Of a stretch of 64,000 nucleotides of DNA, positions 21,874-52,537 are shown in pieces. Origin of the DNA: Promethearchaeota archaeon (GTDB taxonomy: Archaea; Asgardarchaeota; Lokiarchaeia; Sigyniarchaeales; SOKP01). The notes under the pieces were generated by a model, which worked only from the letters and a program-made list of their open reading frames with translations, was not told the DNA's origin and did not search any database. The position numbers and the translations under genes were made by a program. Numbering within the stretch: position 1 is the first letter of the stretch; each line of letters starts with the position of its first letter. The stretch covers positions 175,285-239,284 of the forward strand of contig JAUVNS010000008.1 in the NCBI GenBank assembly GCA_030599585.1. The letters are read 5' to 3'.

Positions 21874-22386
21874 TTATTTCTCTTTCCAAACGCATGAACA
21901 GCCAGAACAAATATATTTCTTTCCATAAATCCTTGGATAGTCGCAGATGATATCGTTCTTATCAATTAATTCGTGTATTTTATACCAATTTTTATCATCG
22001 CATATGGGACACAGCCGACGGCCTTGAGGTTTTGGGATCGTTAAGATTTCTTCGGATCGTCCAAAAAGACCTTCATTTTTTATAGAATTAAGCATGATAT
22101 TTTTTTTAATGAAACTTATTTGAGGAGCTTCAGAATAGTCCGTTTCTGAAGATTTGTGAGGTGTTTCAATAATTTTGGATCCAAATTTTTTTGTTTCGAG
22201 AATTTTTATGTAACTTGAAACTATCGGATTAATTTCACTCTTTTTAGGTAATCTTTCATATTCGCTAATGAAATTGTCTATAAAACTTTCGACATAATCT
22301 TTTTCAATGCTTAAACCTTTTTCTTCAACTTCTTTAATAATGTCTCCAATGATATAATCTTTTAAGATCGGATCTTCCATAATCAT
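21874..22386 (-). CDS. Hypothetical protein with C-terminal Zn ribbon
   Basis: RRLCPIC...YGKKYICSGCSCVW; GGTGAGG RBS upstream. Confidence 0.75.
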   Translation of the reverse strand: MIMEDPILKDYIIGDIIKEVEEKGLSIEKDYVESFIDNFISEYERLPKKSEINPIVSSYIKILETKKFGSKIIETPHKSSETDYSEAPQISFIKKNIMLNSIKNEGLFGRSEEILTIPKPQGRRLCPICDDKNWYKIHELIDKNDIICDYPRIYGKKYICSGCSCVWKEK

Positions 22387-48565: not shown

Positions 48566-48913
48566 TCACTCAGGTAAATAAAATTTGCATACGGTGCATT
48601 GCCGTGCTTTCAATCTTCTTTCGGGACCAAGAATTATATATTTACTTTTCATAGTACCGCTGCATTTAGGACAAGTTTTTACAAAATTTTCTTTAATAGA
48701 ATTTAAGACAAACTGGATATTCTTCTCTAGTTTGAGTAAGTCGTTCGCGTTCTCTATTATATTTTTAGCGGAAACAATCCCAATACCTTTAATCCAAGCT
48801 AAATCTTCAGGCTTTGAACTCGCAATGTCTTCAATTGTTTTAACTCCTGCTTTACTTAAGTTTATCGAGGAAATGGGACCAATGCCGCTTACTCGTTCAA
48901 GTTCATTAGACAT
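48566..48913 (-). CDS. Tandem helix-hairpin-helix protein with C-terminal Zn ribbon
   Basis: VSGIGP, IKGIG HhH motifs; CPKC...CTVC. Confidence 0.8.
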   Translation of the reverse strand: MSNELERVSGIGPISSINLSKAGVKTIEDIASSKPEDLAWIKGIGIVSAKNIIENANDLLKLEKNIQFVLNSIKENFVKTCPKCSGTMKSKYIILGPERRLKARQCTVCKFYLPE

Positions 48914-49094: not shown

Positions 49095-49820
49095 TTACTT
49101 TTCTATTTGTTTCCCTACACCGAAATACATTAAAAAGCCACCGAGAAGGGCTAAAATTATCCCAATAGCCCCTATAAGTAATCTAATTGTTGCATTGGCT
49201 AAGAAATTAGAAATAAAAATAGCATACATAAATATCATTAGAGCAATGAATCCATATATAAAAAATCTCCACTTTCTCTTCAACATTGCATCCTCGAACT
49301 TCTTGTAAATCTGAAATGAGAAATATAGTGACGGTATGAGTGCCCCAATAGTTTCGACTAAGACAACATATAGGAAGAATGGTAAACTCCATTCAGGGCT
49401 CCAATTTGTTCCTGAATTGATAGTAACTCCTAACCCAGGTATAAAAAGGAAGAAAAACATACCAAACATCGCAATTCCGTAAATAATAAGGATTATCAAT
49501 TGTTTACTCGTTGAAATTACCTTTTCAGATTTTAAGAGTATTAAGTCAAAGACCACGATAAATATAGGAGCATAAAAGATTCCAAAATTTGTAAAGAAGT
49601 TGAGTATTGATACAATAAATTCATCAGTCAGAGGCGCGTATAAAAAATTAATAAGAAATCCTATAACAGGAGATATATAAAGTCCTGCGAAAATGACATT
49701 TAATCGTTTTCTATCTCTTAGCAAGATTTTGATTGCTAAATAAAGAAATGCTACCATAATTACCCCTTGGGCTATATAAACAGTTATAATTCGACCCGTC
49801 GTTAATTGAAAATACACCAT
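49095..49820 (-). CDS. Stand-alone 7-TM membrane protein (paralogue A)
   Basis: Seven hydrophobic segments, basic loops (RDRKR, KKFEDAMLKRKWR), no soluble output domain. Confidence 0.8.
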   Translation of the reverse strand: MVYFQLTTGRIITVYIAQGVIMVAFLYLAIKILLRDRKRLNVIFAGLYISPVIGFLINFLYAPLTDEFIVSILNFFTNFGIFYAPIFIVVFDLILLKSEKVISTSKQLIILIIYGIAMFGMFFFLFIPGLGVTINSGTNWSPEWSLPFFLYVVLVETIGALIPSLYFSFQIYKKFEDAMLKRKWRFFIYGFIALMIFMYAIFISNFLANATIRLLIGAIGIILALLGGFLMYFGVGKQIEK

Positions 49821-49964
49821 TGCATAACCACACTTGTTTTGTTATATATTTTTTTTTTACTTGTTATTAATTATTATTGTAGTTTTCTTATTTAACTGTA
49901 ATTTTTACATATATTAGTTGAGTTAATAAAAAATATCTAAATTGAATAAATAGCGATAATTACT

Positions 49965-50675
49965 TCACAAATTCTTAGCTACACCAAAATACACGAAATA
50001 GAGTGAAACTATTGTAGGTAGCGAGAGGAGTGACCAGATTAATCTAAATGTTGGATCGTTTAATGTATTAGAGATCGAAGTACCAAAATATAAGAAAAAA
50101 TAGCTACTTATCCCTATTAAAAAATACTTTAGTTTTTTCTTTAACTCCTTATACTCAAATTTTCGATATAGTTTTATTGATAAATATAACGTGGGAAAGA
50201 TTGCGAATAGGCTACAAACAGTTAGACTATACAATAAATAAATCCAACTCCAATCAGGCTTCCAGTTAGTGCTTTCGTTAATTGTCACTCCATTTGGAAT
50301 CAACCATAGACCTACTAAAAGAACACCAAAAACAACAATTAGTATTAATTGAAGTTTGGGAGTGAAAACTTCCTCTGATTTAAGCAAGATTAAGACAAAA
50401 ACTAACAAAAAAACCAAAGGAAAACATAATAAATAGTAAGTCGTAACATGCAAAATATAAACTACTTCTTCTACAAAAATGAAGGCATAGGCGACATTTA
50501 GGATTACTGCGAACGCTACGCATACATAAAAACTGCTGAGAATAAGATTTAAACCTTTTCTTTCCCTTTTTAAAATTTTGTACGCTATAACCAAATAAAA
50601 TAGCCCTGCTAAACCTTGTACTAAAAAGATTTGAATAAATCGTGCAATATCCATAGTTTGCGCCAGAAGCATCAT
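49965..50675 (-). CDS. Stand-alone 7-TM membrane protein (paralogue B)
   Basis: Shares QG..., KIL.R.RK.LN, LILLKSE, GVTIN..TNW.P.WS, P.LY.S..Y.KFE...LK.K...F..G, YFGV with paralogue A. Confidence 0.8.
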   Translation of the reverse strand: MMLLAQTMDIARFIQIFLVQGLAGLFYLVIAYKILKRERKGLNLILSSFYVCVAFAVILNVAYAFIFVEEVVYILHVTTYYLLCFPLVFLLVFVLILLKSEEVFTPKLQLILIVVFGVLLVGLWLIPNGVTINESTNWKPDWSWIYLLYSLTVCSLFAIFPTLYLSIKLYRKFEYKELKKKLKYFLIGISSYFFLYFGTSISNTLNDPTFRLIWSLLSLPTIVSLYFVYFGVAKNL

Positions 50676-50921
50676 ATCATATCCCCAACTACTTTATAAT
50701 AGAGTGTATAAACATTTTGCCTATTATTGTCATAAATTCTGTCTCTATTTAATAATTTATTTTTTAAACGGTTGTACAATTATTTGAACGAAAATAGAAT
50801 CGTTAGAACCTAAAAAAATCTCAATTTATAATAATATAGAGTTATAGACTCAAATACAAAAAATTTTGTTTCAGAACTATCTTAAGTGGTAGGATTGACG
50901 ATTTTTTGCATTGTTTTTAAT

Positions 50922-51515
50922 TTATGGGTATTTTCCTACGAAATCTTTACTACTTATTTTCACACGCTCGAACAATTCGGGATTGATAAATTCTAGCTTT
51001 AAAGTCACATAATTTAGAACTTTAATGAAAATCTCGGTAATATCCCTTTGCGAGTTTTGAATTTTACAACAATAGTGAAATTTTAACTCTTTAGTTTTTT
51101 GAATTAAAGCAAATTCATTTATTTTTCTATATGTTGGAGGATTAGCTTGTTCAATTAAATAAGTATCGATTCCAACTAATACTGCAATCCCATTAAACAT
51201 AAATTTATCGCAAAATTCTTTATAAATCTCCAAGGATAGCCTTAAAATGTCTTGATCATTATAGAGATTTACGGCAATAATAATTGCATCGATTTTTTTA
51301 AGATGATTAATATTATCGGTAAGATCTTCGAAATTTTTAAACTGAAAAATCTTCATTTTTAGTGGTACGTTCTCGTAGATAAATTGAAACTCACTTATGG
51401 AATCTTTAGAACTAATTAATTTTGTTTTTTCTTTTAAGTACTCTAATATAATATCGATTCTTGAATCATCAGTACCGATTAAACCTAGATTTAAAGAAAA
51501 ATGGAAGTCCTTCAA
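50922..51515 (-). CDS. Ras/Rab-like small GTPase fold with degenerate G motifs (pseudo-GTPase)
   Basis: LNLGLIG (beta1), PLKMKIF (beta3), IDAIIIAVNL (beta4), AVLVG (beta5), DITEIFIKVL (alpha5); GKT, DxxG, NKxD and SAK are absent. Confidence 0.6.
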   Translation of the reverse strand: MKDFHFSLNLGLIGTDDSRIDIILEYLKEKTKLISSKDSISEFQFIYENVPLKMKIFQFKNFEDLTDNINHLKKIDAIIIAVNLYNDQDILRLSLEIYKEFCDKFMFNGIAVLVGIDTYLIEQANPPTYRKINEFALIQKTKELKFHYCCKIQNSQRDITEIFIKVLNYVTLKLEFINPELFERVKISSKDFVGKYP

Positions 51516-51610
51516 TACTTTTCAATCAAATAAAAATAATTAAAGCTCTTAATTTAATATTATAATAAAATATCATACATATAAATTATTGATTGAACTT
51601 TCATTTTAGA

Positions 51611-52537
51611 ATGCTATTTATTTACGGTTTACTAGTGTTAATGGTATTTCTCTGGAGCTTCTCCTTCGTTCTTGTGGATATAGCTGTCGAATTTATACCT
51701 CCAACATCTCTTGCCTTGACCCGATTCTTATTAGCTTCTCTCTCATTTTTAATTGTCGATCTTTATCTTTTTATACGACGAAATCAGAGAGATGAGGAAA
51801 CTTCTAAAACAATTGAGAAACGCTCATATATGAAACTAGATTGGATATATTTATTAATTGCAAGCTTTAGTGGTACATCTTTATTCTTCGCCCTCCAATA
51901 TGCAGCTATTGAGTTGATCGGGCCTTCTTTGCCTGCCTTATTCGTGTGCCTATTAGCGCCCGTATTAATTACTGTTTTAGCTGTGTTTTTTTTTAACGAG
52001 AGATTAACTAAGTTGAAAATAATGGGTTATATTATAGCTACCGTAGGAGGTTTTTTGTTAGTCACAGGAGGAGATTTACGAACCCTGACACCAGAAACAC
52101 CTAACTTTTTAGGATACTTATTTGCTCTTATAACACCCTTGTTGTGGGCTATATACACAATATCCACTAAAAAAATTTCGAAATCAAAGTCAAAAATAAC
52201 TTCTCTTAAATACATCGCGTATTTTGGAACTTTAGAGTTGTTTATTTTTGTATTCTTCAAGGGTGAATTTCTAATTTTCGCTTTAAACATACTAAATCCA
52301 TTTGTTTTAATTTCTGGGATTTATTTAGGTATCGGATGTTATGTTTTTGGTTATTTTATTTGGCAGAAATCACAAAATGAGTTAAAATCTTCAAAAGGGG
52401 CTTCATTTCTCTATATTGAGCCTTTTCTAACTCTCATCTTTTCAATTATCCTGAACCGATCTGAGACAATACTGATATGGAACATCATCGGAGGTATCAT
52501 TGTCTTGGTAGCTGTGTTAGTAATAAATTATAAGTAA
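51611..52537 (+). CDS. DMT/EamA family transporter
   Basis: About 10 TM segments in two repeats; WSFSF, PPTSLALTRF, FFNERL, WAIYTI.TKK, FLYIEP. Confidence 0.9.
   Translation: MLFIYGLLVLMVFLWSFSFVLVDIAVEFIPPTSLALTRFLLASLSFLIVDLYLFIRRNQRDEETSKTIEKRSYMKLDWIYLLIASFSGTSLFFALQYAAIELIGPSLPALFVCLLAPVLITVLAVFFFNERLTKLKIMGYIIATVGGFLLVTGGDLRTLTPETPNFLGYLFALITPLLWAIYTISTKKISKSKSKITSLKYIAYFGTLELFIFVFFKGEFLIFALNILNPFVLISGIYLGIGCYVFGYFIWQKSQNELKSSKGASFLYIEPFLTLIFSIILNRSETILIWNIIGGIIVLVAVLVINYK

What the first reader, a model, noticed from the sequence alone, without database searches (positions are those of the whole stretch)
49095..51515. Rab-like pseudo-GTPase followed by two tandem stand-alone 7TM paralogues
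Seen: three co-oriented genes: a small-GTPase-fold protein, then two mutually homologous proteins of about 240 aa with seven TM helices, a conserved TM4-TM5 loop (GVTIN..TNW.P.WS), a basic TM5-TM6 loop (KFE...LK.K) and no fused kinase or cyclase. Neither has a retinal-type Lys in TM7. Inference: receptor-like 7TM proteins with no output domain need a partner, and a neighbouring G-domain protein suggests a primitive 7TM/G-protein-like signalling or trafficking module. Caveat: the gaps are 144 and 246 bp, so co-transcription is not shown.
Basis: partly seen in the sequence, partly recalled or inferred. Interest (0 to 1): 0.7.

Follow-up and report, generated by a model that had tools for sequence, protein, structure and literature searches.

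The report
Asgard 7TM pair beside dead GTPase
Two receptor-shaped seven-helix membrane proteins of a Loki-type Asgard archaeon lie in a conserved gene cassette with a Ras-shaped protein that has lost its GTP-binding motifs and with small zinc-ribbon proteins; this is probably a membrane sensing complex, but it is not a shown receptor/G-protein pair.

Summary
Three minus-strand genes encode a Ras-fold protein without a Walker A Lys/Ser (197 aa) and two paralogous stand-alone 7TM proteins (236 and 241 aa, 35% identical). The 7TM-A model has a GPCR-like fold, is predicted N-out/C-in, and most resembles HisKA_7TM sensor modules.

The three genes are part of a larger cassette: pseudo-GTPase, 62-aa Zn-ribbon (ZnR1, deleted in this sub-lineage), 7TM-A, 7TM-B, and an HhH+Zn-ribbon protein (ZnR2, window 48566-48913). 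The pseudo-GTPase was found in 64 of 68 other genomes of one GTDB family and in 0 of 232 other genomes of the phylum. In 52 of 65 genomes it lies within 5 kb of a 7TM gene.

In the most divergent genus the flanking genes differ, but the core is kept and the pseudo-GTPase is fused to ZnR1.

Against tight coupling:
- Unrelated opposite-strand genes are inserted between the two halves in some genomes.
- One genome deleted the pseudo-GTPase, and this one deleted ZnR1.
- The wider 7TM family occurs without either.

My reading (0.45) is an output-less 7TM sensor with cytosolic adaptor proteins, not a nucleotide switch. The scan found this cassette before in other genomes, with similarly cautious verdicts.

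The parts
50922..51515 (-). Ras-superfamily-fold pseudo-GTPase ('G-like'), 197 aa, TTG start. It is single-copy in the genome.
   Evidence: ORF. No Pfam hit. AF2 pLDDT 88.1. Foldseek Rac1/Rab1b E 4.5e-9. VIA Z 15.5 to Rab3C. G1/G3/G4/G5 motifs eroded across the family. One copy in the genome.
50676..50921 (.). 246-bp spacer at the position where relatives carry the 62-64-aa CxxC...CxxC Zn-ribbon gene (ZnR1). The gene is absent here and no remnant was detected.
   Evidence: No ORF over 35 aa. tblastn/blastn of six ZnR1 orthologues against the spacer gives best E 0.26, i.e. chance level. ZnR1 is present at this position in L001-L004, L006, L021 and L022.
49965..50675 (-). 7TM-A, a stand-alone 7TM receptor-like protein of 236 aa. 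Many orthologues start at the Met equivalent to residue 8 (MDIARF), so the true start may be 50654.
   Evidence: VIA Z 17.7 to ADGRL3. Atlas TM 0.70-0.76 to HisKA_7TM clusters.
49095..49820 (-). 7TM-B, an old paralogue of 7TM-A, 241 aa. It is the copy retained in every cassette examined that still has an identifiable A or B copy.
   Evidence: 35% identity to A. Position-specific orthology: the first gene matches A and the second matches B in L003, L004, L006 and L021. Only B is present in L001 and L002.
48566..48913 (-). HhH (HHH_5) plus C-terminal CPKC...CxxC Zn-ribbon (ZnR2) protein, about 115 aa. The listed ORF starts at GTG 48922; the orthologues' length of 115 aa fits the ATG at 48913.
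   Evidence: Pfam HHH_5 E 5.4e-12. The full-length orthologue occurs only in family f1 and is always directly downstream of 7TM-B. In genus g4 the ZnR2 half sits on a different N-terminal domain, still next to the 7TM gene.
51593..52537 (+). EamA-family transporter, the divergently transcribed conserved neighbour. It is context and is not shown to be part of the system.
   Evidence: Pfam EamA E 1.3e-32. It is adjacent to the G-like/ZnR1 end of the cassette in L001-L005, L021, L022, L026 and L028, but not in g4.

Best explanation
The window holds a reduced copy of a cassette that is a near-universal, single-copy feature of one GTDB family of Loki-type Asgard archaea. Its order is Ras-fold pseudo-GTPase, ZnR1 (62-aa Zn-ribbon, lost in this sub-lineage), 7TM-A, 7TM-B, then an HhH+ZnR2 protein.

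Shown:
- 7TM-A and 7TM-B are old paralogues. The 7TM-A model has a GPCR-like fold, and both lack an output domain.
- Loop charges of 7TM-A fit an N-out/C-in topology.
- They are distant look-alikes of the HisKA_7TM and 7TMR-DISM input modules that other prokaryotes fuse to kinases, cyclases or HD domains.
- The G-like protein has a Ras fold but cannot have a canonical nucleotide site.

Inferred:
- A and B form a hetero-oligomeric membrane sensor.
- The conserved outward TM4-TM5 hairpin (NxSTNWKPxWS) and the TM6-TM7 loop (SNTL...R) bind an external or membrane ligand.
- The basic inner loops (RRxxK; KFExxLKKKWK) recruit small cytosolic proteins encoded alongside.
- The most likely direct partner or output is the HhH+ZnR2 protein. 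It is always immediately downstream and could bind DNA.
- The pseudo-GTPase acts as a nucleotide-independent adaptor together with ZnR1, to which it is fused in one genus.
- It is an accessory, dispensable arm, not a G-protein-like switch.
For: Fold and topology.

Remote sequence link to 7TM sensor modules:
- hhalign against Asgard HisKA_7TM domains gives 89.9% probability, E 1.7e-6 for the B profile, and 81%, E 1.2e-5 for the A profile.
- The commonest weak Pfam family among 122 members is 7TMR-DISM_7TM (7 members); HisKA_7TM is matched by 2.

Stand-alone status.

Cassette conservation:
- G-like was found in 64/68 other genomes of family f1 and 0/232 elsewhere.
- In 52/65 genomes it lies within 5 kb of a 7TM gene on the same contig, and in 2 more at 7-10 kb.
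- The HhH+ZnR2 orthologue lies directly after 7TM-B throughout f1.

Genus g4:
- The core outlasts the flanks. A radical-SAM gene and a 722-aa unknown replace EamA and Na_Ca_ex, yet G-like, 7TM and ZnR2 remain with about 250-bp gaps.
- Rosetta-stone fusion P0393: residues 57-193 match G-like (E 3e-15) and residues 269-324 match ZnR1 (59% identity, E 4e-25).

ZnR1-like domains associate with true Ras-family genes in this genome. Four of 9 lie within 2.5 kb, against 0.68 expected; permutation p about 0.005, with the threshold chosen after seeing the data.

A/B orthology is positional and old.
Against: - No physical interaction is shown.
- The two halves are separate transcription units in some relatives. 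Opposite-strand genes are inserted between ZnR1 and 7TM-A: about 3.3 kb in G057 of the same genus and about 9.5 kb in G282.
- Components are lost one at a time. ZnR1 is lost here and in about five sampled close relatives whose spacer is about 275 bp. 7TM-A is lost in L001 and L002. G-like is lost in G144.
- G210 has nine 7TM copies. G-like, a stand-alone ZnR1 and a strong HhH+ZnR2 orthologue were not found there.
- All carriers belong to one family, so shared ancestry inflates the adjacency count.
- The unrelated EamA and Na_Ca_ex genes are almost as constant as neighbours.
- Six other 7TM paralogues in this genome have unrelated neighbours.
Confidence: 0.45

Rival explanations
1. The genes are an inherited synteny block with no functional coupling between G-like and the 7TM proteins. 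The 7TM proteins are autonomous members of a lineage-expanded receptor-like family. G-like/ZnR1 belongs to the GTPase network of Asgard cells and has simply stayed next door within one family.
For: - All carriers are in one GTDB family.
- EamA and Na_Ca_ex are conserved neighbours too.
- Opposite-strand insertions split the halves.
- G-like was lost in G144 and ZnR1 was lost here.
- G210 keeps nine 7TM genes without the cytosolic partners.
- 7TM relatives occur in families f2, f12 and f24 without G-like.
- ZnR1-like domains sit near ordinary Ras genes elsewhere in this genome.
Against: - In genus g4 both flanks have changed, but G-like~ZnR1, a 7TM gene and a ZnR2 protein are still adjacent with about 250-bp gaps.
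- Even where insertions occur, the halves stay within 10 kb on the same strand.
- G-like identity falls to 26-34% between genera while gene order is kept.
Confidence: 0.33
2. The 7TM pair is a membrane docking hub, not a ligand sensor. ZnR1 is a shared docking module carried by several cytosolic proteins: the pseudo-GTPase in g4, a two-gelsolin-repeat protein, and a coiled-coil protein. The 7TM/ZnR2 complex would tether such GTPase- and actin-linked proteins to the membrane.
For: - ZnR1 at 59-67% identity sits at the C-terminus of a protein with two gelsolin repeats (Pfam Gelsolin E 1.4e-27), of a 416-aa coiled-coil protein and of a 170-aa protein in this window.
- The gelsolin-ZnR1 protein (332-340-aa reading frames) is kept in all five further genomes checked.
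- ZnR1 is fused to G-like in g4.
- ZnR1 genes are enriched near Ras genes.
Against: - Nothing links ZnR1 physically to the 7TM proteins.
- This genome lost the cassette's ZnR1 while keeping the 7TM genes.
- The strongly conserved outward loops of the 7TM proteins fit ligand binding better than a pure anchor.
Confidence: 0.12
3. The 7TM proteins are small-molecule or ion transporters, or membrane enzymes. They would work in a transport-themed neighbourhood (EamA exporter, Na+/Ca2+ exchanger), with the GPCR-like fold being a generic seven-helix bundle.
For: - Invariant polar residues lie inside TM helices: Q20, N60, Y63, T79, and S202-N203 at the outer end of TM6.
- The neighbours are transporters.
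- Helical bundles often give middling Z scores (note).
Against: - All 50 best structural matches are GPCR-fold receptors, Z 12.9-17.7. No transporter family appears among them.
- The nearest named predicted-structure clusters are all signalling input modules.
- The transporter neighbours are on the opposite strand and are absent in g4.
Confidence: 0.08

Closest known systems
HisKA_7TM (PF16927) and 7TMR-DISM_7TM (PF07695) input modules of prokaryotic histidine kinases, GGDEF/EAL and HD proteins
   Same: Both are seven-helix membrane modules of about 220 residues. Predicted-structure TM-scores are 0.70-0.76. hhalign gives 81-90% probability against Asgard HisKA_7TM domains. These two are among the weak Pfam families that recur across the 122 members; 7TMR-DISM_7TM is the commonest.
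   Different: No member reaches the Pfam cut-off. The proteins are stand-alone, with a C-terminal tail of 4-6 residues and no kinase, cyclase or HD output. They occur as a conserved A/B pair with Zn-ribbon and pseudo-GTPase genes. True HisKA_7TM kinases of about 600 aa exist in other Asgard families but were not found in this genome.
Eukaryotic GPCR fold (best matches: adhesion GPCRs ADGRL3 8jmt and CD97 8ikj)
   Same: Both have an N-out/C-in seven-helix bundle with a beta-hairpin in the TM4-TM5 outer loop. VIA Z is 17.7 (rmsd 3.2 A over 211 residues) and 17.4, and all 50 best chains are GPCR-fold.
   Different: Identity is 6-15%. Foldseek E-values are only 0.018 or weaker. No DRY, NPxxY or CWxP motifs are present (sequence). 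No sequence-level PDB hit was found. The neighbouring G-domain protein is a Ras-type pseudo-GTPase, not a G-alpha.
Ras-superfamily small GTPases and their pseudo-GTPase offshoots (e.g. AGAP1 GTPase-like domain 7eb6; Rab3C 8a4a)
   Same: Both have the six-stranded G-domain fold, with Z 15.4-15.5 over 154-159 residues. The region following G5, reading KDIxEIF, corresponds to the Rab-type NVxxxF helix start (my comparison from memory). The Asp of G4 is kept in at least 90% of members. The g4 orthologue gives a weak Pfam Ras hit, E 0.0011.
   Different: The Walker A Lys/Ser is replaced by Asp-Ser here and Asp-Tyr in other genera. There is no DxxG. NKxD is reduced to VGxD and SAK to YC[CF]. There is no C-terminal Cys for prenylation. 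The family is restricted to one GTDB family.
Sensory rhodopsin / Htr transducer pairs of haloarchaea (analogy from general knowledge, not tested)
   Same: Both are output-less 7TM receptors that must signal through a separately encoded partner whose gene lies alongside.
   Different: There is no retinal Lys in TM7. The candidate partners here are soluble Zn-ribbon, HhH and pseudo-GTPase proteins, not a two-helix membrane transducer feeding CheA.

Membership tests
HisKA_7TM (PF16927) | Match to the Pfam model above the gathering score (28.6 bits) | tested here: not met
   No hit for 7TM-A or 7TM-B at E<=1. Two of 122 family members hit, best E 0.005. A six-frame scan of the whole genome gave 0 matches at E<=10, while the controls responded.
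HisKA_7TM (PF16927) | Seven-helix fold like that of family members | tested here: met
   Atlas search by shape gives TM 0.70-0.76 to clusters in which 52-100% of members carry PF16927.
HisKA_7TM (PF16927) | Profile-profile sequence similarity | tested here: inconclusive
   hhalign against ten Asgard HisKA_7TM domains: A5 89.9% (E 1.7e-6), A1 81.2% (E 1.2e-5), but the broad alignment A6 gives only 32%. TM composition can inflate such scores. hmmsearch of the profiles against these kinases found nothing.
HisKA_7TM (PF16927) | N-terminal position in front of a cytoplasmic signalling domain | tested here: not met
   The proteins end 4-6 residues after TM7. The best 150 representative clusters are all 329 aa or shorter.
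Eukaryotic GPCR superfamily | 7TM bundle with GPCR helix arrangement, N-out/C-in | tested here: met
   VIA Z 17.7 and 17.4, and the top 50 are all GPCR-fold. Loop charges fit the positive-inside rule. Both rest on a predicted model.
Eukaryotic GPCR superfamily | Class-defining sequence motifs (E/DRY, CWxP, NPxxY) or significant sequence similarity | tested here: not met
   The motifs are absent from both sequences. There were no PDB sequence hits at E<=10. Foldseek E is 0.018 or weaker.
Eukaryotic GPCR superfamily | Coupling to a heterotrimeric G protein or arrestin | not testable with these tools
   The neighbour is a Ras-type pseudo-GTPase. Binding was not established.
Microbial rhodopsins | Schiff-base Lys in the middle of TM7 | tested here: not met
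   TM7 of A (PTFRLIWSLLSLPTIVSLYFVYFG) and of B has no Lys.
Ras-superfamily small GTPases | G-domain fold | tested here: met
   Foldseek E 4.5e-9 to Rac1/Rab1b. VIA Z 15.5. Model pLDDT 88.1.
Ras-superfamily small GTPases | G1 Walker A GxxxxGK[ST], G3 DxxG, G4 [NT]KxD, G5 SAK | tested here: not met
   In the alignment of 35 family members, G1 reads GLIGTDDS or GIVGNKDY, there is no DxxG, G4 reads VGxD and G5 reads YC[CF]. Pfam Ras gives no hit for the window protein.
Rab family specifically | C-terminal Cys prenylation motif and closer similarity to Rab than to other Ras-like families | tested here: not met
   The protein ends ...DFVGKYP with no Cys. Rac, Rab, Ras and AGAP domains score within one Z unit of each other.

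The most novel reading that the evidence does not exclude
A prokaryotic GPCR-fold receptor heterodimer transmits its state to a Ras-fold, nucleotide-independent adaptor plus a Zn-ribbon docking module. That same module is also carried by a gelsolin-repeat actin regulator and by coiled-coil proteins. If so, this is an Asgard-specific receptor-to-GTPase/cytoskeleton link: a 7TM/G-domain pairing that arose outside eukaryotes, or that shares roots with the eukaryotic one.
Probability: 0.12. Interest if true: 0.85.

Novelty: new variant of a known kind. Interest (0 to 1): 0.55.

Why it matters
[quoted passage not shown] They are rich in small GTPases, but what feeds signals into those GTPases is unknown.

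This cassette is conserved, carries no family annotation, and places GPCR-fold, output-less 7TM proteins next to a Ras-fold protein and Zn-ribbon modules. One of those modules, ZnR1, recurs on a gelsolin-repeat protein and near true Ras genes. That makes it a concrete and cheap target for pull-down, nucleotide-binding and structural work.

If the parts bind each other, it would be the first prokaryotic 7TM-to-G-domain link. If they do not, the result still defines three new Asgard protein families: a 7TM family with 418 representative clusters, a family-wide pseudo-GTPase, and the ZnR1 and ZnR2 modules.

Tried and rejected
- Complex prediction with three chains (7TM-A, 7TM-B and G-like, each with its alignment; G-like as partner) scored 0.00 against a mark of 0.32. 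The tool's verdict was 'no answer', which is neither for nor against binding.
- Pfam gave nothing for G-like, 7TM-A or 7TM-B. Profile searches of PDB sequences gave nothing meaningful for either family.
- hmmsearch of the A1, A5 and A6 profiles against Asgard HisKA_7TM kinases found nothing.
- A search for a decayed ZnR1 in the 246-bp spacer gave only chance-level matches.
- Bacterial-type promoter and terminator scans were at shuffle level and do not apply to archaea.
- The repeat search found no motif shared by the four upstream regions beyond what AT-rich DNA gives.
- Neighbours of the other 7TM paralogues (183-aa, 184-aa and two 128-aa proteins) are unrelated to each other and to G-like. 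One true Ras gene lies two genes upstream of the four-copy array. With 68 Ras genes in the genome, that is not beyond chance.
- The ESM Atlas look-up of the HhH+ZnR2 protein returned only its own clusters.
- In family f2 the ZnR2 domain sits on a 253-aa soluble protein with no 7TM gene nearby, so that link does not extend beyond f1.
- Literature searches found no description of this cassette. One preprint (10.64898/2026.10.28.762692) notes that Asgard '7TM proteins' and GPCR-like structural clusters have been listed as eukaryotic signature proteins.
- Rejected: rhodopsin, because there is no TM7 Lys. Rejected: a working GTPase switch, because the motifs are absent. Rejected: a specific Rab assignment.
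Full report
OBSERVATION

- G-like: 50922..51515, 197 aa, TTG start.
- 7TM-A: 49965..50675, 236 aa.
- 7TM-B: 49095..49820, 241 aa.

The gaps are 246 and 144 bp. A and B are 35% identical (E 2e-45), and both carry the quoted loop motifs. Pfam recognises none of the three.

An AF2 model of 7TM-A, built on 27 homologues, has pLDDT 89.9. It shows seven TM helices and a beta-hairpin in the TM4-TM5 loop. Loop charges (ICL1 +3, ICL3 +6, outer loops 0 or -1) give an N-out/C-in topology. TM7 has no Lys.

An AF2 model of G-like, built on 35 homologues, has pLDDT 88.1. It matches Ras-superfamily GTPases: Foldseek gives Rac1 and Rab1b at E 4.5e-9, and VIA gives Z 15.5 to Rab3C and 15.4 to the AGAP1 GTPase-like domain. 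Rab, Rac and Ras score alike, so 'Rab-like' is not established.

The P-loop keeps its length but reads GLIGTDDS here and GIVGNKDY in other genera. DxxG is absent, NKxD is reduced to VGxD, and SAK is YC[CF] in all 35 members. The whole family is therefore a pseudo-GTPase family.

WHAT THE 7TM PROTEINS RESEMBLE

- Foldseek against PDB gives only weak GPCR matches, E 0.018 or weaker.
- The exhaustive aligner puts GPCR-fold chains in all top 50 places. The best are adhesion GPCR ADGRL3 (Z 17.7, rmsd 3.2 A over 211 residues) and CD97 (Z 17.4).
- Among predicted structures, the nearest named clusters are HisKA_7TM input modules of kinases, GGDEF/EAL and HD proteins, at TM 0.70-0.76.
- At sequence level the link is weak. 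Seven of 122 family members touch 7TMR-DISM_7TM and two touch HisKA_7TM, all below the cut-off. The Pfam model finds nothing in this genome.
- hhalign against ten genuine Asgard HisKA_7TM domains gives 81-90% probability for the A and B profiles, but 32% for the broad profile.

I file the proteins as distant look-alikes of prokaryotic 7TM sensor modules, not as members of PF16927.

A profile search of 1.84 billion representatives finds 418 clusters. The best 150 are all stand-alone, 114-329 aa.

THE CASSETTE IS LARGER THAN REPORTED

In relatives the order is: EamA (divergent), G-like, a 62-64-aa CxxC...CxxC Zn-ribbon (ZnR1), 7TM-A, 7TM-B, an HhH+Zn-ribbon protein (ZnR2), then Na_Ca_ex (convergent).

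- ZnR1 is 76-94% identical between lineages in which G-like is only 26-52% identical.
- The first 7TM gene is always the A orthologue and the second the B orthologue, so the duplication is old.
- In this window the HhH+ZnR2 gene is present at 48566-48913.
- ZnR1 is absent from the 246-bp spacer, with no detectable remnant.
- About five sampled close relatives have the same spacer of about 275 bp. The loss is therefore a sub-lineage event.

DISTRIBUTION (301 genomes of the phylum)

- G-like was found in 64 of 68 other genomes of the window's own GTDB family, one copy each. It was found in 0 of 232 genomes elsewhere, including 0 of 7 in the sister family.
- The 7TM family is wider: f1 66/68, f2 6/7, f24 4/21, f12 1/1, with 1-9 copies per genome.
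- This genome has eight 7TM copies. Four of them form a tandem array elsewhere.
- From the coordinates, G-like lies within 5 kb of a 7TM gene on the same contig in 52 of 65 genomes, and at 7-10 kb in two more. The other 11 are on different contigs, several at contig ends.
- The full-length HhH+ZnR2 orthologue occurs only in f1 and always directly after 7TM-B.
- Submitters' labels on some MAGs (Thor-, Hermod-, Hodarchaeota) do not fit this GTDB grouping.

EVIDENCE FOR COUPLING BEYOND INHERITED SYNTENY

- In the most divergent genus (g4) both flanks differ: a radical-SAM gene replaces EamA and a 722-aa unknown replaces Na_Ca_ex. The core stays together with about 250-bp gaps.
- In g4, G-like is fused to ZnR1 through an acidic linker of about 75 residues. 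Residues 57-193 match G-like (E 3e-15) and residues 269-324 match ZnR1 (59% identity, E 4e-25).
- Also in g4, the ZnR2 half sits on a different N-terminal repeat domain, still next to the 7TM gene.
- ZnR1 is a reusable module. In this genome it ends a two-gelsolin-repeat protein, a 416-aa coiled-coil protein and a 170-aa protein in this window.
- Four of nine ZnR1-like domains lie within 2.5 kb of a true Ras-family gene. The expectation is 0.68 and the permutation p is about 0.005, with a threshold chosen after seeing the data.

EVIDENCE AGAINST TIGHT COUPLING OF G-LIKE AND THE 7TM PROTEINS

- Opposite-strand genes are inserted between ZnR1 and 7TM-A. In G057, of the same genus, these are a U32 peptidase and a B12-radical-SAM gene (about 3.3 kb). 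In G282 they are four genes (about 9.5 kb).
- G144 has deleted G-like but keeps ZnR1, one 7TM gene and the HhH gene.
- L001 and L002 lack 7TM-A.
- G210 has nine 7TM genes in arrays. G-like, a stand-alone ZnR1 and a strong HhH+ZnR2 orthologue were not found there.
- EamA and Na_Ca_ex are nearly as constant as neighbours outside g4.
- The other paralogues in this genome have unrelated neighbours.

The tightest links are therefore 7TM-B with HhH+ZnR2, and G-like with ZnR1. The link between these two halves is looser.

MECHANISM I COMMIT TO (0.45)

- A and B form a membrane sensor. Their conserved outer hairpin and TM6-TM7 loop bind a ligand, and their basic inner loops recruit small cytosolic proteins.
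- HhH+ZnR2 is the likeliest direct partner or output.
- G-like with ZnR1 is an accessory adaptor that does not cycle nucleotide.
- Fold, topology, motif loss, conservation and the fusions are shown. The heteromer, ligand binding and every contact are inferred.

Rivals:
- Inherited block without coupling (0.33).
- Docking hub for ZnR1-bearing GTPase and actin-linked proteins (0.12).
- Transporter or enzyme (0.08).

NOVELTY

I found no paper describing this cassette. A preprint notes Asgard 7TM and GPCR-like structural clusters in general.

This scan has noted the same cassette in other genomes. Two follow-ups reached cautious verdicts. My results agree on the fold, the dead motifs and the separate transcription units. 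They add the family-restricted distribution, the g4 fusion with changed flanks, the one-at-a-time losses and the ZnR1 module's wider associations.

I rate it a new variant of a known kind: an output-less 7TM sensor module with unusual accessory genes.

Noticed in passing
own genome contig C34:160843-161859 (L019:3843-4859, minus strand): A 338-aa protein with two gelsolin repeats (Pfam Gelsolin E 1.4e-27) ends in a ZnR1-type Zn-ribbon that is 67% identical to the cassette's stand-alone ZnR1. ZnR1 hits inside reading frames of 332-340 aa occur in all five further family genomes checked. From memory, it may correspond to the 'two-domain gelsolin plus unknown domain X' class described for Asgard gelsolins. 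I could not check this in the paper library.
   Followed up: partly
window 21874-22386 (-): A 170-aa protein with no Pfam hit carries a C-terminal ZnR1-type Zn-ribbon (59% identity to the cassette ZnR1). A third carrier is a 416-aa coiled-coil protein at L010:415-1665, next to a Ras-family gene.
   Followed up: partly
own genome, nine ZnR1-like domains against 68 Pfam Ras matches: Four of nine ZnR1-like domains lie within 2.5 kb of a true Ras-family gene (C24, C21, C11, C50), against 0.68 expected. Permutation p is about 0.005, with the threshold chosen after seeing the data. This suggests ZnR1 is a small-GTPase-associated module in this lineage.
   Followed up: partly
own genome contig C20:121029-124384 (L016:5006-8388, + strand): Four tandem paralogues of the 7TM family (240-248 aa). 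Upstream lie a 183-aa unknown, a nitroreductase, and a 349-aa protein with a genuine C-terminal Ras domain (Pfam Ras E 1e-44) and an unexplained 178-residue N-terminal part.
   Followed up: partly
G279:C21:1094-1654 (related genome, not fetched): The 7TM-A orthologue in this relative's cassette is interrupted by one TGA and two TAA codons, while 7TM-B next to it is intact. It is probably a pseudogene, another sign that 7TM-A is the dispensable copy.
   Followed up: no
L023 (G210:C6:836000-846000): A run of seven co-directional genes of 238-283 aa includes at least two 7TM family members. G-like, a stand-alone ZnR1 and a strong HhH+ZnR2 orthologue were not found in this genome.
   Followed up: partly
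L029-L036 (Asgard families f7, f9, f24): Canonical HisKA_7TM proteins of about 600-660 aa, presumably histidine kinases, are common in family f24 (6 of 7 genomes). PF16927 gave no match in the window's genome and only one sub-cut-off match (E 4.5e-4) among 25 other f1 genomes. Four f24 genomes also gave weak hits to the 7TM-A/B profile (E about 1e-12). I did not check whether these are the same genes.
   Followed up: partly
L021:2751-5792 and L022:3361-12654: The ZnR1/7TM-A junction has taken insertions in at least two lineages: a U32 peptidase plus a B12-radical-SAM gene in G057, and four large opposite-strand genes in G282. In G144 a 920-aa CCG/Pyr_redox_2/4Fe-4S oxidoreductase, on the strand opposite to the cassette genes, lies between ZnR1 and the 7TM gene (L026:6072-8834).
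   Followed up: partly
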